Assembly (NCBI GenBank): GCA_000004985.1
Contig: GG738918.1
Strand: one strand, 5' to 3'
DNA from: Naegleria gruberi
Lineage: Eukaryota
Length of the DNA stretch: 64,000 nucleotides
Positions 21,165-48,147 of the stretch are shown here, piece by piece. Both the position numbers and the translations under genes were made by a program. A model generated the notes under the pieces. The model ran no database searches and was not told the DNA's origin. It worked only from the letters and a program-made list of their open reading frames with translations. The stretch's first letter is position 1. The number at the start of each line of letters is the position of its first letter.

Positions 21165-22187
21165 CTAAAGTTGAGACACTTCCAAATCATAGGTATCAGT
21201 AGATTTCAATAACAGGAATGAAATACAGAAACAACAGTTATAATTTGGTCTCACCCGATAGGTATTTCCTGTTTTTTTCAGTTTCACCAATTTGTTTCTT
21301 ACAATCCACTCAGAAACATCTCTATTACAACATAATAAACTGAAAAGCAAACCAATAAACACTGCATCAATCAAGAAGAGGAACAATAACACTAAACCAC
21401 TTGGTAATAATCCTATGAATAGTGGATAATCAATTTCTGGTTTGTAAAGATAGAGTTGATAAATTTCAACTCCACTCTTAGAGCTATATGATGTCATTTT
21501 ACATTTGAGAGCTCCATCTTGATTTTTTTCCTTAATACATTCAGGGACATTGCATTCATATGAAAATACAGTGGGATATTGTATTTTGCTTTCTCTAAGT
21601 TTAACATAATAGAAATATTTCAGTCTTGTTGGGATACTATCAAACATACATCCAATACTTGTTGAGCTATTATTCGGTTGACAACATGGAAGAGTATTAA
21701 AATTATTACAACTCGAATTCCAATTAGTGTTGCATTCCACACATTCTGGATACGAAACCCTTCCAATAGTACTGTTCAAAACTTGAACAGAAGAAACAAT
21801 CCTCTCACAATCATTGAACGAACTCTCTACATGACTCGCAGAACCTAAAGCCAAGCCAAGACCTCCAACCAATAACAACATCCCCAGAATCACAACAAAT
21901 AGTAAACAAGCTGTATAAAAACAGTTGCACTCAGTAGCATATCTCATACTGTTGACAAGTCTGTCCGTGTTTTGTTCCTCGCGGTTTCGTTTGATTTCAA
22001 CTTTTTCTTCATATTCAATCCTTTTCTGATTCCAAAATTTTGGCTTTTCCGTCTCAAAAATTGAATAACATTGCCTATTGATATGTGAAAATGATGAATA
22101 ACTACTCGGAGTAATAAATTCAAGAATAATTGTCAGCTCATCATCATTTAATTTGTGAAAATTTCCCTTCACTTGCTTTCTTGTCAT
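21165..22187 (-). CDS. F-box-like N-terminus + TM + Cys-rich ectodomain + C-terminal TM protein (paralog 1 of inverted pair)
   Basis: 340 aa. It contains ELTIILEFITPSSYSSFSHINRQCYSIFE (F-box-like), a hydrophobic helix LLFVVILGMLLLVGGLGLAL, many Cys (CVECNTNWNSSCNNFNTLPCCQPNNSS) and a C-terminal TM. Confidence 0.6.
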   Translation of the reverse strand: MTRKQVKGNFHKLNDDELTIILEFITPSSYSSFSHINRQCYSIFETEKPKFWNQKRIEYEEKVEIKRNREEQNTDRLVNSMRYATECNCFYTACLLFVVILGMLLLVGGLGLALGSASHVESSFNDCERIVSSVQVLNSTIGRVSYPECVECNTNWNSSCNNFNTLPCCQPNNSSTSIGCMFDSIPTRLKYFYYVKLRESKIQYPTVFSYECNVPECIKEKNQDGALKCKMTSYSSKSGVEIYQLYLYKPEIDYPLFIGLLPSGLVLLFLFLIDAVFIGLLFSLLCCNRDVSEWIVRNKLVKLKKTGNTYRVRPNYNCCFCISFLLLKSTDTYDLEVSQL

Positions 22188-23168
22188 TTTTTTTCACAAG
22201 TTTGAACTCTACAGACCATGACAGGAGATCTTCACTTCAACAGTCAAAGAGAGAATTTCTTGTTTTGATTAATGTAGTTGTAATTTTTGAATTATCATAA
22301 TAAAATTACTGATTGTCACATGCTCAATTTACTCCTTGACTCAAACTATTCTTTGATTATTCGAATTTTGAATGTTTCGAACTCATCCATAAATTGTTCC
22401 CAATCATTTTACAATCCTTATTTTAAATCCAATCCCTCAAATTCAGTTGAAATGATGCGTGATAATAGATCATCATACGGATTTAACACTCTCACAACAA
22501 TAACAACATGAAAAAATCAACAAGTTAGGCTACTAATAATAATAATACACTATCAAAAGGTGCCACTTCAACCATTAATAATATATGTCCTTCAAAATCA
22601 AGTACCACAACAACAACCACTGCTCCATCTCCCACTCCTTTATGAATAAGAGAAAAATCTAAAACTTCTTCATCAAATCTTCATACAAAACAATATTCAA
22701 AACAATCCATTCAAAAAAATAATCTTAATAAGTTATCAAGGCTTCCGTTGGATTGTATTTTTTATATGTTAGAATTTGTTGGTCAATATTCAAATACAAC
22801 CAAAGGCTAATAAGAATAATAAGGAAATGTTAAATGATTCAAAGATTTATTGGAATTTATTAAAGATTGGTTCGGAAGATTTTCATAAACCAAAAAAATT
22901 TCCAATTTAATAGAGTGGATCAAATATATCTTGAAACATTGAATTATATAGTTACCGTTGATTTTAAAATTTGGAAATGGAAATATTCAATGCATAGGAA
23001 GATTTTCACGTGGCTAGATTTCTGTTAAAATCTTCATACCACTACCCTAACAAAACAAGAAATTCTCTCTTTGACTCTTGAAGTGAAGAAGATTGTCAAT
23101 CTCCTAGCATGGTCTATTAAGTTCAAACTCATGGTGTTGTGTTGGTTCAAACTTGGTGTGAAAAAAAA

Positions 23169-24197
23169 ATGACAAGAAAGCAAGCGAAGGGAAATTTTCA
23201 CAAATTAAATGATGAGCTGACAATTATTCTTGAATTTATTCCTCCGAGTAGTTATTCATCATTTTCACATATCAATAGGCAATGTTATTCAATTTTTGAG
23301 ACGGAAAAGCCAAAATTTTGGAATCAGAAATGGATTGAATATGAAGAAAAAGTTGAAATCAAACGAAACCTCGAGGAGCAAAACATGCACAGAATTGTCA
23401 ACACTATGAGACATGCTGCTGAGTGCAACCTTTTTTACATGGTTTTGCCTTTATTAATAGTTACGATTCTGGGGATGTCGTTATTGGCAGGAGGTCTTGC
23501 CTTGTCTTTTAGTTCTATGAGTCATGCAGAGAGTTGGTTTAAGGATTGTGAGAGAAATGTTTCATCTATTCAAGTTTTGAACAGTACTATTGGAAGGGTT
23601 TCGTATCCAGAATGTGTGGAATGCAACACTAACTGGAATTCAAGTTGTAATAATTTTAATATTCTTCCATGTTGTCAACCGAATAATAGCTCAACAAGTA
23701 TTGGATGTATGTTTGATAGTATTCCAACAAGAGTGAAATATTTCTTTAATTTTACAGTTAAAGATTACAAAGAAATGCATTATTCTTCAGTTTTTTCATA
23801 TGAATGCAATGTCACTGAATGCATTAAGGAAAATTATCAAGATGGAACTCTCAAATGTAAAATAACCTCATATAATACTAAGCGTGGATCATTTTATCAA
23901 CTATATGTATACAAGCCAGAAATTGATTATCCACTGTTTATAAGATTATTACCCAGTGGTTTAGTTTTATTGTTCCTTTTCTTGATTGATTTAGTGTTTA
24001 TTAGTTTGCTTTTCACTTTATTTATCGGGTTTACTTGTAAGAGAGACATGTTTGGATGGATTGTAAGAAACAAATTGATGAAATTGAAAAAAATAGGAAA
24101 TACCTATAGGGTGAGGCCAAGTTGTTGTTGTTTCTGTATTTCATTCCTGTTTTTGAAATCTACTGATACCTATGATTTAGAAGTGTCTCAACTTTAG
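23169..24197 (+). CDS. Paralog 2 of the F-box-like/TM/Cys-rich protein (inverted duplicate of 21165..22187)
   Basis: About 80% identical protein (MTRKQAKGNFHKLNDELTIILEFIPPSSY...). The ATG at 23169 is preceded by an A9 run. Confidence 0.6.
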   Translation: MTRKQAKGNFHKLNDELTIILEFIPPSSYSSFSHINRQCYSIFETEKPKFWNQKWIEYEEKVEIKRNLEEQNMHRIVNTMRHAAECNLFYMVLPLLIVTILGMSLLAGGLALSFSSMSHAESWFKDCERNVSSIQVLNSTIGRVSYPECVECNTNWNSSCNNFNILPCCQPNNSSTSIGCMFDSIPTRVKYFFNFTVKDYKEMHYSSVFSYECNVTECIKENYQDGTLKCKITSYNTKRGSFYQLYVYKPEIDYPLFIRLLPSGLVLLFLFLIDLVFISLLFTLFIGFTCKRDMFGWIVRNKLMKLKKIGNTYRVRPSCCCFCISFLFLKSTDTYDLEVSQL

Positions 24198-24338: not shown

Positions 24339-25400
24339 TTAATGTATTAGTGCTTCATCTTCAAAATCAATCAATTGAATACAAATGGTTGGTTCAAGAT
24401 CTGAAAGTTGTACATTTTTCTTCACTCCATGCAAACCCAATCGTACTGAATGGTAAAAATTGCCTGGAAGTGAAGTTTCCCTTGATTTTGAAGTGGCAAC
24501 GAACACAGAATTTTCATTTGAATTCATTGCCATTTCCTCTCTTTTCAACATTGTTTTAATTTCCTTAACAGTCGATTCAAGCTTGCTCGATTTGTTGAAC
24601 CAAGTGGAAAATAATTGTCTATAGATGGCAGTGCATGGTTTTTGAATCTGATTCTTGACATGGTGGTATTGCATCATTGTAAAGAGGGAAGCTCTAGTTG
24701 GTTGTTGGTAATACGAAATGTCAGTATCAAAGCAGAATTTCTTCTTTTCATTATTCCACTTGAGAGTGATGGTGTAGACTGTATGTTGATATTTACATGG
24801 TGATTTACAATAAGATCTATTCAATTCTGATTCTATAGAGTCAGTGGTAGACCCAGAGCTTGAATTGTGACTAGTTTCGAATAGAAAATCTTCATTGTGT
24901 TGAGGCGATATCGAACCAATCGAATCGTCCACATTCCACAACGTGGTCATTCCACAATTTCTCTGCACAATCTCCTCCTGTATATCCTCAAACGATGAAG
25001 ATCTCGAAGAGGACTTTGAGTTGACCACCGGAGTATTCATTAAGGAACAACTCCTACCAACTCCTTCATTCATATTCAAAATTGCATGATTCATTGTGAA
25101 TTGAAACTGTTCCTCTCCATCCAACCTCATCATGTTTAAATTCTCTTCATGTTGACCATTCGATAATATTTGATTTTGTAAATTTCCCGCCACCACAGAT
25201 GAACCCGAATAGGAAGAGGAAACATTGTAAATTCTATTCATTGTCCCCGAGTGCTGGTAATCGCTTGATTTACGTTTCATTTGAGAGTGAGTTTGAGTTT
25301 GGCGCTTTTCTAGCCGTAGATTTTCAGTCCTTTTTTTCAGGTTGAAAAAAGATAAAAATAGGTGAAAGCGGGAAGATTTTATTGGATTTTGCAGTGTCAA
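24339..25400 (-). CDS. Hypothetical Ser-rich protein
   Basis: 353 aa ORF with no recognisable domain. Codon usage is consistent with its neighbours. Confidence 0.35.
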   Translation of the reverse strand: MTLQNPIKSSRFHLFLSFFNLKKRTENLRLEKRQTQTHSQMKRKSSDYQHSGTMNRIYNVSSSYSGSSVVAGNLQNQILSNGQHEENLNMMRLDGEEQFQFTMNHAILNMNEGVGRSCSLMNTPVVNSKSSSRSSSFEDIQEEIVQRNCGMTTLWNVDDSIGSISPQHNEDFLFETSHNSSSGSTTDSIESELNRSYCKSPCKYQHTVYTITLKWNNEKKKFCFDTDISYYQQPTRASLFTMMQYHHVKNQIQKPCTAIYRQLFSTWFNKSSKLESTVKEIKTMLKREEMAMNSNENSVFVATSKSRETSLPGNFYHSVRLGLHGVKKNVQLSDLEPTICIQLIDFEDEALIH

Positions 25401-25873
25401 CTGTTTGGACTTGTTGGGGATGTGATAACACTTCTTAGAGAACTAATGGTGGCACACGAAGGAACTTGTTAGGAAACTGATTGAAATTATCAAGACGTGC
25501 AATTGTTATTTTCATTTTTATTTTGTCAAGTGTTCTTCTTGTCAATAGTTCATTCAAAAATTCATCATCATCATGAATTTATTAAATTATAATTACCAAT
25601 TCTCGGAGAACATTAAAACTGTAGATAATGAGCAAATAGAGTGAAAATGATTTTTATTAATATCTTTCAAAGAGATGATTCTATTTCACTCTTGAACATG
25701 ATGTGAATTTTAACTTTGAACATGTATCACCATATCTTCATCTTCATCTACCAACTCGTGAATTCATATTAAAAATAGATTTCAAAGATAATTTGCTTCA
25801 AAAATCTTCATCATGATTCGGAAACTATTATTAAACAATAAGAAAAAAACAATTAATAATACACAATAGTAAG

Positions 25874-25945
25874 ATGGAAGCCTCATACACTGTCAAGAGC
25901 ATTGTTGGTACCAGAATTACCTTGCAAATTTTGCAAAAGAAGTAA
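25874..25945 (+). CDS. Conserved micro-ORF copy 1 (23 aa: MEASYTVKSIVGTRITLQILQKK)
   Basis: It shares a 15-aa identical core YTVKSIVGTRITLQI with the micro-ORF at 30412..30486. Differences in the core are synonymous only. Confidence 0.45.
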   Translation: MEASYTVKSIVGTRITLQILQKK

Positions 25946-26435
25946 ATAGACACACAACTATCATTGATGAAATTTCGGCTTGGAAATATGGATATAACTA
26001 AACATTGTGAAAATGTTGGACTATTTCCACAACGCGTTCATCATCATCATAATCACCTACCTCTCCTGCTGCTGCTTTACTACACCAGGTGAGAAGAGAG
26101 AAACCTATTTCTACAACTACACTCAGTTTGCTATTGCTTTTGGAAAATGTTTTTAATAATGAGTGTGGTAATGTTGTTGAGAATCTTCTCTAGAATACAT
26201 TTGCTTGTAAATATAACAAAATAGTGCATCAATACAAACAACATTTATTTGTTGAATTATTAACCAGTTTTTTCTCTTGATAGAAATATCTTGTTGTGAA
26301 TTCACATGTGTGAAGAATCCTTGTTTGAAAAGTATTGGAATATTTTCAATTCTATATTCCAAAATATTCAATAATTGCTGTAAGGTAAATCGTGACCAAA
26401 TGAAAATTAAGTGATGTTAATTTAAATGTTTCATT

Positions 26436-27599
26436 TCACTTATCCTTCACAATTTCATTGTAACCTATATCAAGTGATGTTAACTGTTTCATTTCACTAA
26501 TGAATTTGACTCCTTCATCACCAATTTGATTTCCACCAATATAAAGTGATTTTAATTGTTTCATTTCACTTATGAATTTGGCTCCTTCAATACCAATTTG
26601 ATTGTTATAAATATTAAGTGATATTAATTGTTTCATTTCACTTATCAATTTGGCTCCTTCATCACCAATTTGATTTCCACCAATTTCAAGTGATGTTAAT
26701 TGTTTCATTTCACTTATTGGTATGACTCCTTCAACACCAATTTCATTTCCACTAATATCAAGTGATGTTAATTGTTTCATTTCATTTATAAATTTGGCTC
26801 CTTCATCACCAATTTGATTGTTATAAATACTAAGTGATTTTAATTGTTTCATTTCACTTATGAATCTGGCTCCTTCGGCGCCAATATGATTGTTATTAAT
26901 ACTAAGTAATGTTAAATGTTTCATTTCACTTATAGATTTGGCTCCTTTATCACCAATTCTATTGTTATTAAAATCAAGTGATGTTAATTGTTTCAGTTCA
27001 CTGATTGATTTTACTCCTTCATCACCAATTCCATTTCCACTAATATCAAGTGATGTTAAATGTTTCATTTCATTTATGAATTTGACTCCTACAACACCAA
27101 TTCGATTGTAACCTATATCAAGTGATGTTAATTGTTTCATTTCACTTATAAATTTGGCTCCTTCATCACCTATTCGATTTTCGCTAATATCAAGTGATTT
27201 TAATTGTTTCATTTCAGTTATGAATTTGACTTGTATAGAGTCAAGCAACCTTCTAGAAAATTTAAGATTAACAATACTATTCATAAATTGGCTTTTCATG
27301 CATAATTCAATCCTTGTTTCTGTAAATTTTTGTTTAAATTTAATAACAAGTTTTGAACGTTCCTTGATCACATTAAAGAATTGTTTTGAAATCAAGGAAC
27401 AATTATTCAAAATAAACCACGAATCATCAATCATGGAAATTATTTCAAAACAAACATCATCTGAAAATATTTCTTGTTCAAGCTTGACAACTTTTACTTT
27501 CCCTTCCATGTTAGTATTATTATTATTGATCATGAATAGCTCTTCCGAAATTAGTTGCTTTTCAAAATCTTGTCTTTGTTTACTCATTTTTTTTGGCAA
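26436..27599 (-). CDS. F-box-like + RNI-type LRR protein (paralog of 4102..5199), ~11 24-aa repeats
   Basis: 387 aa. The same N-terminal module (FSDDVCFEIISMIDDSWFILNNCSLISKQFF) and EMKQLTSLDI..N.IG.EG.KFI repeats are present. Confidence 0.7.
   Translation of the reverse strand: MPKKMSKQRQDFEKQLISEELFMINNNNTNMEGKVKVVKLEQEIFSDDVCFEIISMIDDSWFILNNCSLISKQFFNVIKERSKLVIKFKQKFTETRIELCMKSQFMNSIVNLKFSRRLLDSIQVKFITEMKQLKSLDISENRIGDEGAKFISEMKQLTSLDIGYNRIGVVGVKFINEMKHLTSLDISGNGIGDEGVKSISELKQLTSLDFNNNRIGDKGAKSISEMKHLTLLSINNNHIGAEGARFISEMKQLKSLSIYNNQIGDEGAKFINEMKQLTSLDISGNEIGVEGVIPISEMKQLTSLEIGGNQIGDEGAKLISEMKQLISLNIYNNQIGIEGAKFISEMKQLKSLYIGGNQIGDEGVKFISEMKQLTSLDIGYNEIVKDK
26440..27240. repeat. 72-bp coding tandem repeats (LRR units) inside gene 26436..27599
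   Basis: Periodic ...tgtttcatttcacttat... units are visible in the DNA. Confidence 0.7.
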
Positions 27600-27681
27600 G
27601 GAGCATTACAATGAAAAAGAAGGAAGTAAATTGATTTAGAAGAGTTATTGAGAATATAAAGATGAGCTATAATAGTATGTA

Positions 27682-28333
27682 TTATTGACTCGATTTCTGA
27701 ACCAATAATGTTTGAATTTGAAGAGTTGTTTCAGATTTTGGAGGTGGAATTGGAAGTGGCTTTCCAACATTTGAATTTCGTCTTGCTTGTTCTATTCCTT
27801 TCGAATCATTATCTGTCTTATTGGCCTCTGCTGATGGATAATTATTTGGTTTTGTTGCATTGGAGAGCCTTCTTGCTGAAGGTGGATTTACAGATGGAGG
27901 AAGTGTCACGCTAGTTGACTGTTGATTACAAAGCTGTAAAATTCCAAGCTGAATTTGTTTCGTTTTCAATTCATCAATTCTGCTTATTAAAGAAAGGCAA
28001 GCTCCCTTCGGAATGCCAATCTCTAACCAATCTTCAATTTTAATATTGAGAATGGAACCTCCATCAAATCTGTGTTTAATAATTACTTTAAATATATTTA
28101 AATACTATTAATTCTAATTGAACAGATTTACTTACCATCAACAACTGATGATTTATCATAACCCGATTCAATAAGCCATTGTCTAAAATTATCAACTGTC
28201 CAATTCTTGAGGCTAATCGAATCAACTTCCATTACAAGATGAGTTGTCTTTACCTTACTCGAGAATATTTTCAAAGAAGGCACATTGAGAATTGGCATAT
28301 TTTGTTCTGTGATGATTATTATAATACTCTCAT
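27682..28333 (-). CDS. SAM (sterile alpha motif) domain protein with Pro/Ser/Asn-rich C-terminus, 2 exons (28333 or 28298..28136; 28058..27682), intron 28059..28135
   Basis: Exon 1 ends ...GYDKSSVD at gtaagt. Acceptor ...gatggag| restores frame into ORF 27682..27969. The joined sequence SISLKNWTVDNFRQWLIESGYDKSSVDGSILNIKIEDWLEIGIPKGACLSLISRIDELK has the SAM-domain pattern. Confidence 0.5.
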
Positions 28334-28440
28334 GTTGTTGCTGTTCTTTCTACGGAGGTTTGATGTAGGAGATGACTCGAAAATCTCTTTCAATTCATGT
28401 CATTCAGAAAGGCTTGTTATCATCACTTGATTATAAATTT

Positions 28441-28746
28441 TTATTGGATTCTCTCCTCGATGCTTTTTCGAAACTTGTGGAAGCGTTCCCAGGACATTGA
28501 CTCTCTAGAAACCTTTTCATAGAGTCTCTTGTTGCAATAGATTGTTACCTCATCATTGTGTTCATTCTGAACAAATACCAAACAATCTGCACAATGATGT
28601 TCATCCAATTTATAAGGAACAAAAACGTAGCAGTCGACGTGTCTTCTCAAAAGAATGGCCTTCAAAAATCGAATAGTAACTTGCTCCTCTCCCTTCTTTT
28701 GCTCCTCCATTCTTCTTGCTTGTATTGTATCTAGCTTAATGATCAA
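28441..28746 (-). CDS. Small Cys/His-containing hypothetical protein (possible zinc-binding)
   Basis: 101 aa ORF. HHCADC ... IYCNK motifs. No family assigned. Confidence 0.3.
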   Translation of the reverse strand: MIIKLDTIQARRMEEQKKGEEQVTIRFLKAILLRRHVDCYVFVPYKLDEHHCADCLVFVQNEHNDEVTIYCNKRLYEKVSRESMSWERFHKFRKSIEERIQ

Positions 28747-28831
28747 AAAATTCCAAAAGGTTCTTACACAGATTGAGTTGAGTAATTTTTTTGTGCTTTA
28801 TTTGTGGCAAATTTTGGCGGCAAACTTTGTC

Positions 28832-29806
28832 TTAATTTGCTTGTTTGGTTGCCTCAATTACAATGGCAGTGCAAACATCGATCGAATTTCTTCCGTATTC
28901 TTTGGCGCCTAATTCCTTTTCATCGAGTCTTAATTTGTGAAAGACAACTTTGGAGAAACCTGCCAATTTGAGTGCCTTCTCATAACTTTGAGGTGAAAAG
29001 TATCGATTTTGAATCTTTACAATGAAATTCTCATTCTGATCGAATTCATTGAAATTCAAATCGATGGAAATTTCGAATTGATCACCATCGATGAGATAGT
29101 TTCGTTCCTTTGAATCTATCATGAAGTTACTTCTGTAAACTCCGAGTTTTTTCTGATCTTGATTGATTTGTGCTTGATTGAGGAAAGGATTCGAATTAAG
29201 GGTGAGGAAAGTTCCACCAGGTTTTAACATTCCAGAAATTGATTTGCACATTTTGCATAATTCTTCATAATCGGATGAGTAGTGGAGTAAGTGGCAAGCA
29301 GTTACGAAATCAAATACTGGACTTTCTTGTTTAGTTTCGTTCTTATTCGAATGTTTGTAATACAGTTTCTTCAATTGCTCATTTTCATTCAATTTAATAA
29401 CATCACCGACTATGAATTCGAGAGGAATTTTCTTTGAAAGAGAGTTTTCCACTTGCTCTTTCGAATTATTAGCCAACTGAATCATATCATTCGAAAGGTC
29501 CACACCAATCACTGATTTAATATGAGATTCGAATTGATTGTACAAAACCCAAGTATCATTTCCAGATCCACAACCCAAATTCAACACCATCAACTTTTCA
29601 GAGTTTCGGTTAGTTTCGTTTCTCTCCTTCTCCACAGTAAATATTCTTTCCCAATGATGAATCATATTTGGGTTGACAATATAGAGACGATGAGGGTGAT
29701 GTCTGTTCTTATCATACTTGTTGGAAATTGATTGGTAGAGTTGAAGTGCTTGCTCGCTCAGATTCATTTTCCTCAATCTTTGTTTTTTTTGAGATTTGTA
29801 TATCAT
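28832..29806 (-). CDS. Class I SAM-dependent methyltransferase
   Basis: Motif I is VLNLGCGSGNDTW. A downstream acidic post-I motif (GVDLSNDMI) and a Methyltransf_11/12-like core are present. Confidence 0.7.
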   Translation of the reverse strand: MIYKSQKKQRLRKMNLSEQALQLYQSISNKYDKNRHHPHRLYIVNPNMIHHWERIFTVEKERNETNRNSEKLMVLNLGCGSGNDTWVLYNQFESHIKSVIGVDLSNDMIQLANNSKEQVENSLSKKIPLEFIVGDVIKLNENEQLKKLYYKHSNKNETKQESPVFDFVTACHLLHYSSDYEELCKMCKSISGMLKPGGTFLTLNSNPFLNQAQINQDQKKLGVYRSNFMIDSKERNYLIDGDQFEISIDLNFNEFDQNENFIVKIQNRYFSPQSYEKALKLAGFSKVVFHKLRLDEKELGAKEYGRNSIDVCTAIVIEATKQAN

Positions 29807-30411
29807 ATTCGATTGGAAACGAAACTAAACTGAATGTAAATTGAAAGTTGATGATTTCAACGTTTCGAAATGGTTCTTTGCAAATTGTGGCTCATTCTGA
29901 TAAACCAATTCAAGTCCAAAGCAAGTTAGACATTTAAAACATTTAAAAGCAGTTTGATTTCAGATTGCTAGAAACGCGCCATTTTTAAAAAAGAAACCGT
30001 TACACAATTAAAAATCTTCTTCACAAAAAAATTAAGTTAAAAAGCAAATCACTCCTTCGTGAATTGTAGTTAACTGGACCTTCATCAACATACTATACAA
30101 CGATGCATTGGCCAACAATTCCCTAAATTAAACCTTCTCTAAAGAGGCAAATGAGTAAAAACAATAATTTGACCAAATATTCGAAGTCATCACCATTAAC
30201 AACCAATGAACAAGTTGGGAGGCTTCTTTCACGCATCATCATCCAACATTCCATCATGATAGAGAAGAAGAGTTGAGGATTTGTGTGCTATTCTTATTGC
30301 CTCAAGTTGATAAAGACAGAAAACAATCAAAAGATTTCAAGTAAAACAAAAACAAAGAGAAGAACAATAAGAATTTCACCATTTAGTATACAACAGAACA
30401 TAATCAACAAT

Positions 30412-30486
30412 ATGGATACTACATTCTATACAGTCAAGAGCATTGTCGGCACACGTATTACTTTGCAAATTAATTTTAAAAGATAG
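30412..30486 (+). CDS. Conserved micro-ORF copy 2 (24 aa: MDTTFYTVKSIVGTRITLQINFKR)
   Basis: See copy 1. The core is 45 nt with 5 synonymous codon differences and 0 replacements. Confidence 0.45.
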   Translation: MDTTFYTVKSIVGTRITLQINFKR

Positions 30487-30873
30487 GAAGAATTGTTGTT
30501 GATGATGATGAATTTGTTAATACATATATATGAGACTACATCAGACTACACCAATTCCTATTCTCTGATCAGCTTGCTTATATATTATAGGTAGCTACCT
30601 AGACCTTGTTCATGTATTTTGTAATTTAGAATGATTAATATTATTATTGTATAATAATTGTGTATTATAACCTCATCATCATAGTGAGAGTAAAAGAACA
30701 GAAAGAAGAATAATTATCATCAAACTGGAATGATCTCTTCCTACTTGTAGTGTATACAATAAACTCCACTTTATATGGAGTATTAATCCTCTCTAATTTA
30801 TTATCAATTTAGTCAATCCATTCTCCTCAATATAATCTTCTTCTTATAATATTCGAAAATTTAGAATTACAAT

Positions 30874-32572
30874 TTATTTTGATTGAACCAAAGCTTGTAA
30901 ATATCTTCTCTGGTGTTCCCTAATTGAATACTCTGTAATATCCTTAAAGACAGTCAACAAATTATTCTCATCAAAGGCATTCAACACTCTCACTAACATG
31001 GATGGTCCAGCATTCTCATCATTTGGATCGACACAACATTCTCCTGGATTGAGTAGTAATTGTCGAGTCTTTACACTTGAGGAATACTTATCAACAATGA
31101 ATTGAATGCAATCATCAATGTTCTGTCCATTCTTATCAGAAGGAAAGTCATCAAAGTGAGATGCAAATGATTGGTTGACTAGTTTTTGTTCCAAAACGTC
31201 TTTCTTATTGAAAAGTAGGACGAAAGGAAGTTTGGCAAATGAAGGATTATAGAGCAAGTTCATGAAAATATCGAAACTTTCTTTCCATCTTGGAGTTTCT
31301 CCATCTTCAAAACAATTCGTATCAAATTCTGATAAGGAAACAACAAATAGAATGACATCTGCTGAATTAAATTGGTGAATCCACTTTTTTCTTTCATGTC
31401 TGGATCCTCCCATGTCAATCATTGAGACAGTGACAGCATCTTCAACTCTGTACTTTAATTCTTGTACTCCAAGAGTCTTTTCTCTCAAAAGTAAGACATC
31501 TCTCAATGTTGGAACATAATCATCATTGAAAACTCTATCAAAATTGGTAAAAAAACTAATCAAGGTCAATCAGGAATTATTCAGTTACTGAGATTACTTA
31601 CTATTCTGCGTTATCGTAGACTCTAAATTCATTTCTTCTCTTAAATGACTCTTGAATTCCTTCATCATTCCATAACTTGACAAAAAACTCACAAAATTCC
31701 TTTGAAACTTTACAATTTCCACTCACAGTATACAAACTCTCAACTCCATCCATCTCACTAACTTTATCAGCAAAATCAAAAGCTTTTGCTTTCAATTCTT
31801 CTCCACCTCGAATATCAATTGCTAAATCTTCACTTCCCTCAATGACCCATCTCATATTATGGAGAACATTCTCTCTAATAACTTGAACGAAACCTTTCAA
31901 ATCATTCTCATTGTAAAATGTAGAAACGTCAATGTCAATGAGACTAGTTGATCTCTGAGCAGGTCCTTCACATAGATATTTCATTAGTTTAAAGAGAAGA
32001 GATTTTCCAACTTCTCCTGCACCTAAAAGTAAAATGTTCAGCTTGTCAGGTTCAATTTGAGTGTGATTCTTGACTGACATTTGAGAGCTGTAACGACGCC
32101 TTGGAGAAGTATTGACAGAAAGAAGGTTTGGAGGTGGTGGATTATCTTTTAAGAGTATGGCATTAACATTTCCATTAACACTTGATCCATTCAAATTATT
32201 ATTCGAAATGTCTTTTGTCAAATCATTAGACGAAACTCTCAATTTACTATCTCCCACTCCAAGAGTTGGTGATGAATGAAAACCTATCGAAGGATTAAGC
32301 AATGAGCCACCACTTCCAACCGAAACAAGTGGATGATTCGAACCATTCAAATTATTATTGAACGAACCTGACTTTTTTAATTTTGCAGCTAAATTTGCTG
32401 TTTGTTTCGAAAAGGAATTATTATTAGTCGAATTTTGAAGATTATTGAAGGAAGCTTGGTTCATGAATGGAGAGGTAGGTGAGGTTGGTGATTTGGGTGA
32501 GTTGGGTTGTGATTTTGATTTTGAAATGTGTGAGGCATCGTCAGACGAAATTGCCGAAACGCCAATTCCCAT
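30874..32572 (-). CDS. Heterotrimeric G protein alpha subunit, 2 exons (32572..31602; 31555..30874), 46-bp intron 31556..31601; long low-complexity N-terminal insertion
   Basis: MGIGVS N-terminus (myristoylation consensus). P-loop LLLGAGEVGKSLLFKLMK. Across the splice: YDNAEY|FFTNFDRVFNDDYVPTLRDVLLLREKT (switch I), DMGGSRHERKKWIHQF (switch II, DxxGQ-like) and LLFNKKDVLEQK (NKxD). Donor gtaagt, acceptor gattag. Confidence 0.8.
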
Positions 32573-33512
32573 TTTTTTCAAGTTTAAAGTTTTTCTAATA
32601 CAAGATGAAGAAGCTTGATGAAAACCAAATGTTTCTCTATGACTTGTTGCTGTTTGGCAAACTTTTTTTTAATGATATAAATCTGTAAACATTTTCAAAA
32701 ACTGTCAAAGATGTCAAAGTTGCCAGCAAACATCAATCTCTTCACCTTCTCTGAAAACTTGAATTATTTTTAGTGTCCTTGCTGGACTTTTATAACTAAG
32801 GACGAATTCTTCAATTTGCCTTGATGCCTCCTTAATATATCCTTGCAAACACTTTCCCGCCCAAAAAAGGGGAGATGAATACGTAATGCGAGTTGTTGCG
32901 CTTTTTGGAATTTTCATTGTATTTTAATGTCTTGTGAGGTTTCAGTAAAATTGTAGCGAGTGATAAAATTTGGAAGGAGTTAAAGTGAGCTTATCAATGA
33001 TGAGGATTGACATTTACACTATTGAATGAACTTGTTATCTTGCATTGATTCGAATAATTGAATGGATTTTTGAAAGAATTGATAGAAGAAAGTAAACTAA
33101 TCTTTGAGCAATCTTTAAGATTAATATGAGGAGAATAAAGTACTACCGAAAGTAGTATATTAAGATTTTATTAGAGATAATATTGTGTAGTGGAAGAGCA
33201 TGTCAGTATTACAAAAACATTTAAAAATAGTTGAATGTTGCGCATCGATGACATTTGACGACATGCGAAGTCAGCAGTTAGCCAATATCTTATTAACTTC
33301 TATATTTTATGTTACTATCAGATTATTTCACATTAAATACTTTCGTATTGTATTATTCTAAACAAAACCTTTGGCAAAAGCTCCATTTCACAGTATACGA
33401 AACTTAATGTCATAATAAGAAGTTGAACGTTGACTAAAGATGTGACACGCTAATCTAATAGTTACTAGATGTTCCATTTCAATAAACAATCAAAAACTAT
33501 CATGAGAAAAAA

Positions 33513-46689: not shown

Positions 46690-48147
46690 ATGAAAGTCTC
46701 ATTGTTACTTGTTGCTGTCATCTTTGCCATGATGATGATGGCCATGAACATTCATGCCGAAAAGACCTTTGAAATTCCTTTGAGAAAGAGAGCCTACGAT
46801 GATGCTCGTGCTGCCTCTGTCAAACTCTCCAAGATGAGAAGCATTCAAACACAAAACAAACTTCGTTCCTTGTTGTACTCTGCCACACGATTGGCCACCA
46901 CAAAGCCATCCCTCAAGGTTGGTGCCACTCCAATTGTTCCATTGAAGGACTATGATGATGTCGAATATTATGGAGAAATTACCATTGGTACTCCTGCTCA
47001 AACTTTCAAAGTTGTTTTTGATACTGGAAGCTCCAACTTGTGGGTTCCTAGTGTTGCCTGTAAGGATTTGAGTTGTGTTAGACATGCTAGATATAATCAT
47101 ACCAAGTCTTCTACCTATGTTCCAAATGGACAATCATTCAATATTACTTATGGTACTGGTGCTGTTAAGGGTGTAAGTTTTTTTGAATTGGATGATGAAT
47201 TTATTAATTATTATTATTATAATTATTATTATTGAAAATTAATTATATTGAAATGCATAATGTTTAAATTAATTTATATAATATTGTATACAATATATTC
47301 GGAATATTAGATTTTGTCAAGTGATACCGTTGTTGTTGGTGGATTGGCTATTAAGGGTCAAGTTTTTGGTGAAACTACCAATGAATATACTGATACTTTC
47401 TTGAATGCCAAGATTGATGGTATTTGTGGATTTGTAAGTATTTAATCTTTCTTTTATCCTTAATATTAATCTAATAATATTAATATTAATATTCTAATTA
47501 ATTAATTCAACAATTTATTATCGGAATAATTTAAATAGGCTTTCCCAAATATTGCTGTTGATGGTGTTACTCCAGTTTTCAACAACTTGATGAAGCAACG
47601 TCTCGTTGATAAGAACATTTTCTCCTTCTACATGTCTAAGAAGGCTGGAAGTGGTGCTTCTGCAATGATTTTGGGTGGAATCAATTCTAAATATTATACT
47701 GGTTCTTTTAGCTATGTTCCATTGATTCAACATAATTATTGGAGTATTGCTTTGGATGATATTGCAATGAATGGACAAGGACAAAGTTTGTGTGGATTTG
47801 GATGTATGGCCATTGTTGATACTGGTACTAGTTTGATTGCTGGAACACCAGATGTTATGCAACCAATTATTAATCAACTTAATGTTGCTGAAGATTGTTC
47901 TAATATTGATTCTAATCCAAATGTTTCATTTGTCATTGGTGGAAAGCAATATCTTTTGACTCCAAGAGACTATGTCATTAAGATTACCTCTCAAGGACAA
48001 ACTCAATGTTTCCCAGGTTTCCAAACTATGGATATGGGTACTAATGGATTCGTCATCCTTGGTGATGTTTTCATCTCCACTTATTACACTGTCTTTGATT
48101 ATGAAGGTTCTAGAGTTGGATTTGCCAAGTCAAATCAAAACCTTTAA
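46690..48147 (+). CDS. Pepsin-family (A1) aspartic protease, secreted; 3 exons (46690..47172; 47311..47433; 47539..48147)
   Basis: Signal peptide. Catalytic motifs [13 protein letters not shown] and [12 protein letters not shown]. Exon junctions ...GTGAVKG|[11 protein letters not shown] and ...IDGICGF|AFPNIAVDG. Donors gtaagt at 47173 and 47434. Acceptors tattag (47310) and aaatag (47538). Introns are extremely AT-rich. Confidence 0.85.

What the first reader, a model, noticed from the sequence alone, without database searches (positions are those of the whole stretch)
25874..30486. Two copies of a 23-24 codon micro-ORF (M..YTVKSIVGTRITLQI..) whose 15-aa core differs only by synonymous changes
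Copy 1 (25874..25945) and copy 2 (30412..30486) sit in different intergenic regions on the + strand. Within the 45-nt core there are 5 codon differences (GTT/GTC, GGT/GGC, ACC/ACA, AGA/CGT, ACC/ACT) and zero amino-acid replacements. The flanking codons and the surrounding DNA have diverged completely. That pattern indicates purifying selection on the peptide rather than on the nucleotide sequence. It argues against a simple recent DNA duplication or an RNA structural element. Candidate roles are a secreted or signalling micropeptide, a regulatory uORF family, or a short first exon.
Basis: seen in the sequence. Interest (0 to 1): 0.65.

Follow-up and report, generated by a model that had tools for sequence, protein, structure and literature searches.

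The report
Conserved 23-codon micro-gene pair in Naegleria
Two unannotated 23- and 24-codon reading frames in the amoeba Naegleria gruberi share a 15-amino-acid core that has stayed identical while its silent codon positions are close to saturated with changes, so they most likely encode a small peptide of a family with no known relatives.

Summary
The 45-nt cores differ at 8 nucleotides in 7 codons, not 5, and every difference is synonymous on the + strand. dS is about 1.5 and dN is 0 to 0.03. The chance that 8 random substitutions leave the peptide unchanged is about 3e-6.

The pair is the best intergenic-versus-intergenic protein-level match in the window (40.5 bits against a background of 30 or less). 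Both copies have ATG-to-stop limits, A at -3 and G at +4, an acidic second residue and a dibasic C-terminus.

The window is Naegleria gruberi. A 96.6%-identical environmental strain carries copy 2 unchanged, inside a 604-nt block with only 2 substitutions.

I found no relative of the peptide in 5.8 billion proteins, 1.84 billion representatives, JGI metagenomes, viral contigs, Pfam or PDB. Rfam gave no family match and folding gave no structure signal.

The uORF and first-exon roles are disfavoured. No conserved or long ORF follows either copy, and in copy 2 the stop comes before any splice donor.

Best reading: two old paralogous stand-alone small genes for a cationic micropeptide rich in beta-branched residues. 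Its function is unknown. Transcription and translation are untested.

The parts
25874..25945 (+). Micro-ORF copy 1, 23 codons plus TAA: MEASYTVKSIVGTRITLQILQKK
   Evidence: The start context is agtaagATGg. The in-frame upstream stop TAA lies at 25832-25834, so this ATG is the only start possible without splicing. The codon-usage frame score is +9.8 bits.
25886..25930 (+). Conserved 15-codon core of copy 1 (YTVKSIVGTRITLQI)
30412..30486 (+). Micro-ORF copy 2, 24 codons plus TAG: MDTTFYTVKSIVGTRITLQINFKR
   Evidence: The start context is aacaatATGg. The ORF is identical (0 of 75 nt differ) in the related-strain contig L001. The codon-usage frame score is +5.1 bits.
30427..30471 (+). Conserved 15-codon core of copy 2
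25834..25844 (+). Shared 11-mer AACAATAAGAA, 29 nt upstream of the copy 1 ATG. It may be a leader or promoter remnant, or chance.
   Evidence: There are 3 exact copies in the window, so it is not enriched.
30363..30373 (+). The same 11-mer, 38 nt upstream of the copy 2 ATG
30090..30693 (.). Block around copy 2 that is nearly invariant between N. gruberi and the related strain. It is a candidate promoter plus transcript, and its extent is unexplained.
   Evidence: It has 2 substitutions in 604 nt. Adjacent intergenic DNA shows 4-7% divergence events and the methyltransferase CDS shows 1.2%.

Best explanation
The two ORFs are old paralogues of an unannotated, stand-alone small gene of Naegleria gruberi. 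Each is transcribed on its own from a roughly 1-kb spacer between unrelated genes on the other strand. Each is translated from its ATG into a 23- or 24-residue peptide with net charge +3. The peptide itself is the selected product. Its 15-residue core, rich in beta-branched residues around a central Gly-Thr, most plausibly forms a strand-turn-strand that binds a cellular partner. What is shown: the ORF structure, the all-synonymous divergence, the frame preference and the conservation in a second strain. What is inferred: transcription, translation, the fold and action as a free peptide.
For: All 8 differences in the core are synonymous. The probability under random substitution is 3e-6. dS is about 1.5 and dN is 0-0.03, so neutral DNA of this age should be unalignable, and the flanks are unalignable. 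The pair is the strongest intergenic-to-intergenic match in the window. Both copies have an ATG 4-5 codons before the core and a stop 4 codons after it. Both have A at -3 and G at +4, Glu or Asp at position 2, and KK or KR at the C-terminus. The codon-usage frame test favours the + frame, with +4.9 and +2.7 bits for the core and +9.8 and +5.1 bits for the full ORFs. The minus frame that shares third positions scores -0.02 and -1.9 bits. In copy 1 the frame is closed by TAA 13 codons upstream. Copy 2 is unchanged in a 96.6%-identical strain. No annotated protein anywhere contains the motif, so it is not part of a known gene model. Both copies sit in spacers of 1035 and 1067 nt, against a typical 100-400 nt in this window. 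The core has higher beta than helix propensity (1.25 against 0.96) and a hydrophobic moment of 0.61 at 180 degrees against 0.08 at 100 degrees.
Against: There is no expression evidence of any kind. There are only two paralogues and one near-identical strain, so selection is inferred from a single pairwise comparison of 15 codons. Copy 2's codon usage over the whole ORF is unremarkable among intergenic ORFs of similar size (rank 38 of 140). The strain-level conservation covers 604 nt, not just the ORF, so that comparison does not point specifically at the peptide. AlphaFold2, run on an extended 36-residue version, gave a single helix with unstable confidence (pLDDT 51-85 across models), so the hairpin is not supported by modelling. 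No homologue was found in other organisms.
Confidence: 0.55

Rival explanations
1. The ORF is a cis-acting regulatory ORF. It is translated, but the nascent peptide acts inside the ribosome tunnel as an arrest peptide. This would control translation of a following short ORF or the stability of its own transcript. The fungal arginine attenuator peptide and plant conserved-peptide uORFs work this way.
For: The architecture matches what is known of the arginine attenuator peptide (from general knowledge, not tested here): about 24 codons, a variable N-terminus, a conserved core and a few variable codons before the stop. In both loci a second ORF starts in the same frame 7-8 codons after the stop. 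The flanks of copy 2 are strongly conserved between strains.
Against: There is no long or conserved main ORF downstream before the convergent gene. The two downstream short ORFs are not significantly similar (14.8 bits). There is no similarity to any known arrest peptide or Pfam family.
Confidence: 0.12
2. The conserved segment is an exon, either the last coding exon or a small internal one, of an unannotated spliced gene. The ATGs would then be incidental.
For: There is weak in-frame similarity upstream of the ATGs (TIR, Q-x-I-I-x-N). The length differences there are multiples of three. The shared 11-mer ends in AAG at the same phase in both copies and could be an acceptor. This genome has short canonical introns.
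Against: No other conserved coding segment exists in either spacer in any frame. Copy 1 leaves only 39 nt between the upstream stop and the ATG. AACAATAAG is unlike the one verified acceptor. Both copies having an ATG within 5 codons of the core is unlikely by chance (my estimate is about 0.01). The one plausible two-exon model in copy 2 needs a GT that is mutated in the related strain.
Confidence: 0.12
3. The two segments are decaying relics of a once longer gene family. Their peptide-level conservation reflects past selection, not present selection.
For: There is no detectable homologue, no annotation and no expression data. Only 15 codons survive.
Against: The rest of the putative ancestral gene has decayed beyond recognition, yet the core has no replacement at dS of about 1.5. 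Both relics would have to keep an intact start, stop and length. Copy 2 is invariant between strains that differ by 4-7% in neighbouring spacer DNA.
Confidence: 0.07
4. The segment is a non-coding DNA or RNA element (a binding-site cluster, a small RNA, or coding on the minus strand) whose variation only mimics codon periodicity.
For: The minus frame that shares third positions reads ICKVI[L/R]VPTMLLTV with 38.6 bits. There are weak C/D-box-like matches elsewhere in both spacers. A 604-nt block is conserved at the nucleotide level.
Against: Periodicity together with complete synonymy has a probability of about 3e-6. The Arg switch AGA/CGT is silent only on the + strand and is a radical Leu/Arg change on the minus strand. 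The minus frame has no common ORF limits and a negative codon score. No Rfam match reaches its gathering score, and folding z-scores are +0.25 and +0.6.
Confidence: 0.05

Closest known systems
smORF-encoded micropeptides from stand-alone small genes (for example Drosophila tarsal-less/pri peptides and vertebrate sarcolipin-class peptides; from general knowledge and reviews such as PMC8928697)
   Same: The ORF is far below annotation length thresholds. It was recognised by amino-acid-level conservation with silent-site divergence. Paralogous copies share only the peptide core.
   Different: There is no sequence similarity to any of them. The peptide is not hydrophobic or transmembrane like the SERCA-regulator class. 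The copies are not polycistronic like tal/pri, because they lie 4.5 kb apart with other genes between them. No expression data exist.
Fungal arginine attenuator peptide and plant conserved-peptide uORFs
   Same: The length is about 24 codons. The layout is a variable N-terminus, a conserved core and a few variable residues before the stop. Conservation is at the peptide level.
   Different: Those always precede a main ORF on the same mRNA, and no such ORF exists here. There is no motif similarity.
First beta-hairpin of ubiquitin-fold proteins (ubiquitin MQIFVKTLTGKTITLEVE)
   Same: The resemblance is recalled from memory. V-K, G and I-T-L are in register, and strand-like residues alternate on either side of a Gly turn.
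   Different: The resemblance is not statistically supported. The peptides have no Pfam hit at E up to 10 and no PDB chain at E up to 10, although the PDB holds many ubiquitin chains. The rest of a beta-grasp domain is not encoded downstream.

Membership tests
Stand-alone smORF / micropeptide gene | A complete ATG-to-stop ORF under 100 codons that is not contained in a longer CDS | tested here: met
   Copy 1's frame is closed 13 codons upstream. No database protein contains the motif.
Stand-alone smORF / micropeptide gene | Purifying selection at the amino-acid level (dN/dS well below 1) between homologues | tested here: met
   There are 8 synonymous and 0 replacement differences. dS is about 1.5, dN is 0-0.03, and P is about 3e-6. 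The test rests on one pair of 15 codons.
Stand-alone smORF / micropeptide gene | Evidence of transcription and translation (RNA-seq, ribosome footprints or mass spectrometry) | not testable with these tools
   No expression data are reachable. Only the start context and codon usage are compatible.
Conserved-peptide uORF / ribosome arrest peptide (AAP-like) | Lies in the 5' leader of a main ORF on the same strand | tested here: not met
   Only 388-490 nt follow before a convergent gene, and they hold no long or conserved ORF.
Conserved-peptide uORF / ribosome arrest peptide (AAP-like) | Peptide-dependent ribosome stalling | not testable with these tools
   This needs toeprinting or ribosome profiling.
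Ubiquitin-fold (beta-grasp) protein, N-terminal exon | Significant match to a ubiquitin-family profile or structure | tested here: not met
   Pfam gave 0 families at E up to 10 and PDB gave 0 chains at E up to 10.
Ubiquitin-fold (beta-grasp) protein, N-terminal exon | A splice donor after the hairpin, with the remainder of the domain encoded downstream | tested here: not met
   Copy 2 has no GT before its stop. No conserved downstream exon exists.
Known non-coding RNA families (Rfam), including C/D-box snoRNA | A covariance-model match at the gathering score | tested here: not met
   The only match at gathering score in the window is a tRNA-Lys. The best sub-threshold hits in the two spacers score 25 bits against a threshold of 80 and do not overlap the core in a consistent way.
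RiPP precursor peptide | A short precursor gene clustered with tailoring enzymes, with a leader/core layout known from a described family | tested here: inconclusive
   Copy 2 is divergently adjacent to a SAM methyltransferase. Copy 1's neighbour has no recognisable domain. There is no similarity to any described precursor.

The most novel reading that the evidence does not exclude
The peptides are more than generic microproteins. They would be a Naegleria-specific regulatory or modified peptide class. One option is a stand-alone ribosome-arrest ORF that works without a classical main ORF. The other is precursors of a ribosomally made, enzyme-tailored peptide, given that copy 2 sits head-to-head with an unannotated methyltransferase.
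Probability: 0.1. Interest if true: 0.7.

Novelty: new member of a known kind. Interest (0 to 1): 0.4.

Why it matters
Genome annotation of protists ignores ORFs this small. No microprotein appears to have been described in Naegleria: my full-text searches found none. This pair is a clean candidate defined by evolutionary evidence. Its peptide has no relative in about 6 billion proteins, so its function would be new. It is directly testable with existing N. gruberi RNA-seq and with a whole-genome tblastn. If the family proves larger, or is conserved in the pathogen N. fowleri, it would be a lineage-specific peptide worth functional study.

Tried and rejected
**Coding on the minus strand.** Rejected. 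It requires one radical replacement, the two copies share no ORF limits, and the codon score is negative.

**uORF.** Rejected, because there is no main ORF downstream.

**First exon.** Rejected. In copy 2 the stop precedes any donor. Enumerating acceptors after the donor-like AG|GT at 26088/30590 gave no similar second exons.

**Readthrough or selenocysteine into the in-frame downstream ORF.** Rejected. The stops are TAA and TAG, and the downstream similarity is at background level.

**Ubiquitin N-terminus.** No statistical support.

**Structured RNA or snoRNA.** No support.

**Hits from the exhaustive HMMER search.** P0005 is a bacterial FN3-repeat protein and P0006 is a repeat protein. Both match only the untranslated stretch upstream of copy 2, and their scores are inflated by 6-9 repeats. 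Neither is a relative of the core.

**AlphaFold2.** It gave a single helix with unstable confidence and was uninformative.

**Synteny.** The 48%-identical methyltransferase contig L002 is not syntenic and has no micro-ORF.

**Exact-protein look-ups.** Look-ups for window ORFs and for P0003 and P0004 found nothing on record. I therefore could not obtain a strain orthologue of copy 1 or any locus from another Naegleria species.

**Collection scans.** Scans of JGI metagenomes and IMG/VR with a degenerate 15-codon pattern and with 8-residue patterns gave no relatives.
Full report
**Observation**

Copy 1 (25874-25945) reads MEASYTVKSIVGTRITLQILQKK*. Copy 2 (30412-30486) reads MDTTFYTVKSIVGTRITLQINFKR*.

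The 45-nt cores (25886-25930 and 30427-30471) differ at 8 nucleotides in 7 codons: TAC/TAT, ACT/ACA, GTT/GTC, GGT/GGC, ACC/ACA, AGA/CGT and ACC/ACT. Seven differences are at third positions. The eighth is the first base of the Arg codon switch. None changes the peptide.

In 300,000 simulations, 8 random substitutions left the + frame translation intact with frequency 3.3e-6. Nei-Gojobori counting gives pS 0.65, dS about 1.5 and dN 0-0.03, depending on the path assumed for AGA/CGT. Silent sites are therefore close to saturation. That explains why everything outside the ORF fails to align.

A peptide tblastn and a degenerate 15-codon pattern each find exactly two copies in the window. Shuffled sequence gives zero matches to the pattern. 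As an empirical null I compared all 17.4 kb of intergenic DNA in the window with itself by tblastx. This pair is the top hit at 40.5 bits. After it come the flanks of a local inverted gene duplication, and unrelated matches score 30 bits or less.

**Which strand**

The minus-strand frame that shares third positions reads ICKVI[L/R]VPTMLLTV and scores almost as well in tblastx (38.6 bits). This is expected, because that frame inherits the third-position pattern. I reject it for four reasons:
- The AGA/CGT switch becomes a radical Leu/Arg change on that strand.
- Copy 2 stops right after the core while copy 1 runs on for 18 more codons.
- Copy 2 has no listed ORF of at least 20 codons in that frame.
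- A codon-usage frame test built from the 35 long ORFs of the window gives -0.02 and -1.9 bits for it. The + frame gets +4.9 and +2.7 bits for the core, and +9.8 and +5.1 bits for the full ORFs.

On the + strand both copies have these features in common:
- an ATG 4-5 codons before the core and a stop 4 codons after it
- A at -3 and G at +4
- an acidic residue at position 2
- a dibasic end (KK or KR)

**Context**

ORF 24339-25400 is 100% identical to a predicted protein of Naegleria gruberi. A methyltransferase ORF is 41% identical to a N. fowleri protein. The G-alpha gene next to copy 2 has a canonical 46-nt GTAAGT...AG intron. So the window is N. gruberi nuclear DNA with the standard genetic code.

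Each micro-ORF sits in a spacer of about 1 kb (1035 and 1067 nt). Each is divergent from one minus-strand gene and convergent with another. For copy 1 these are an unknown protein and an LRR protein. For copy 2 they are a SAM methyltransferase and G-alpha. The neighbours are unrelated between the two loci, so only the small unit is duplicated.

**Comparison with a second strain**

An environmental contig (L001, ENA ERZ929261) is 96.6% identical to window 28092-30729 and carries copy 2 with 0 of 75 nucleotides changed.

The conservation is wider than the ORF. Region 30090-30693 has only 2 substitutions in 604 nt. By comparison there are 22 events in the 322 nt to its left, about 4% divergence further away, and 1.2% in the methyltransferase CDS. 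This supports function at the locus. It does not single out the peptide, and I cannot explain the width of the block. It could be promoter plus untranslated regions, a second function of the RNA, or a separate history of this segment.

**Search for relatives**

- The motif is absent from 5.8 billion clustered proteins. I used a concatenated query because the tool needs at least 40 residues.
- An exhaustive HMMER search of 1.84 billion representatives returned only two hits. Both are repeat-inflated and match the untranslated stretch upstream of copy 2.
- JGI metagenome contigs and IMG/VR gave nothing with either a conservative-substitution pattern or 8-residue patterns.
- Pfam and the PDB gave nothing at E up to 10.
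- My recollection that the core resembles the first hairpin of ubiquitin therefore stays a resemblance only.
- Rfam has no match at gathering score in the spacers, and the RNA does not fold better than shuffles.
- Full-text searches found no paper with the sequence and none on Naegleria small ORFs.

**Gene structure alternatives**

uORF: nothing long or conserved follows on the + strand before the convergent genes.

First exon: copy 2 has no GT between the core and its TAG.

I noticed that in both loci a second ORF starts in the same frame 7-8 codons after the stop. Both second ORFs end in LL[LI]YY(T)R-stop, where the last bases also read AG|GTGAGA and AG|GTAGCT. Enumerating every acceptor downstream of that site gave no similar second exons. 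The match itself is at background level (14.8 bits).

Last exon: there is weak in-frame similarity upstream of the ATGs (TIR, QxIIxN), and the shared 11-mer ends in AAG at the same phase. Against this:
- Copy 1 has only 39 nt between an upstream TAA and the ATG.
- No upstream segment is conserved in any frame.
- The 11-mer is not enriched in the window.
- One workable two-exon model in copy 2 needs a GT that the related strain has lost.

**Conclusion**

The best-supported explanation is a pair of old paralogous, stand-alone small genes encoding a 23/24-residue cationic peptide whose sequence is under strong purifying selection (confidence 0.55).

The core has higher strand than helix propensity and a strong two-residue hydrophobic periodicity. 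I therefore favour a strand-turn-strand that acts by binding a partner. AlphaFold2, run on an extended version, gave only an unstable single helix, so the fold is open.

The rivals are:
- a cis-acting arrest-type regulatory ORF (0.12)
- an exon of an unrecognised spliced gene (0.12)
- decaying relics (0.07)
- a non-coding element (0.05)

Expression is untested, and the genome-wide copy number is unknown. These are the decisive gaps.

The finding is real and new as a family. It belongs to a known kind of feature, a conserved small ORF, so I rate it of moderate interest.

Noticed in passing
window 30090-30693: A 604-nt block around copy 2 has only 2 substitutions against the related-strain contig L001. 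Neighbouring spacer DNA differs by 4-7% and the adjacent CDS by 1.2%. The block is much wider than the 75-nt ORF and is not shared with copy 1.
   Followed up: partly
window 25967-26092 and 30505-30594 (+): In both loci a second short ORF starts in the same frame 7-8 codons after the micro-ORF stop. Both end in LL[LI]YY(T)R-stop, which overlaps a donor-like AG|GTGAGA or AG|GTAGCT in the same phase. No conserved downstream exon was found, and the match scores at background level.
   Followed up: partly
window 28832-29806 (-): This SAM-dependent methyltransferase ORF has no N. gruberi protein in the 5.8-billion-protein collection, although the window is N. gruberi. It is apparently an unannotated gene. 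Its first ATG is destroyed in the related strain, so the true start is probably 13 codons further in (the 311-aa product P0001).
   Followed up: partly
window 21165-22187 (-) and 23139-24197 (+): These are divergently oriented paralogues of 340 and 352 aa with no Pfam domain. Short mirrored conserved pieces lie in their shared spacer (22229-22270 and 23048-23090), possibly duplicated promoter elements.
   Followed up: no
window 28441-28746 (-): This 101-codon ORF differs from the related strain by a 12-nt indel and a frame-breaking 5-nt indel, with about 3.6% divergence events overall. It is probably not coding.
   Followed up: no
window 30874-32581 (-): The G-protein alpha subunit gene is split by one canonical 46-nt intron (GTAAGT...TTAG) near 31556-31601. 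This is a useful reference for splice signals in this genome.
   Followed up: yes
window 46690-47235 and 47587-48147 (+): A eukaryotic aspartyl protease domain is split over two ORFs about 350 nt apart. This implies one or more introns, or a disrupted gene.
   Followed up: no
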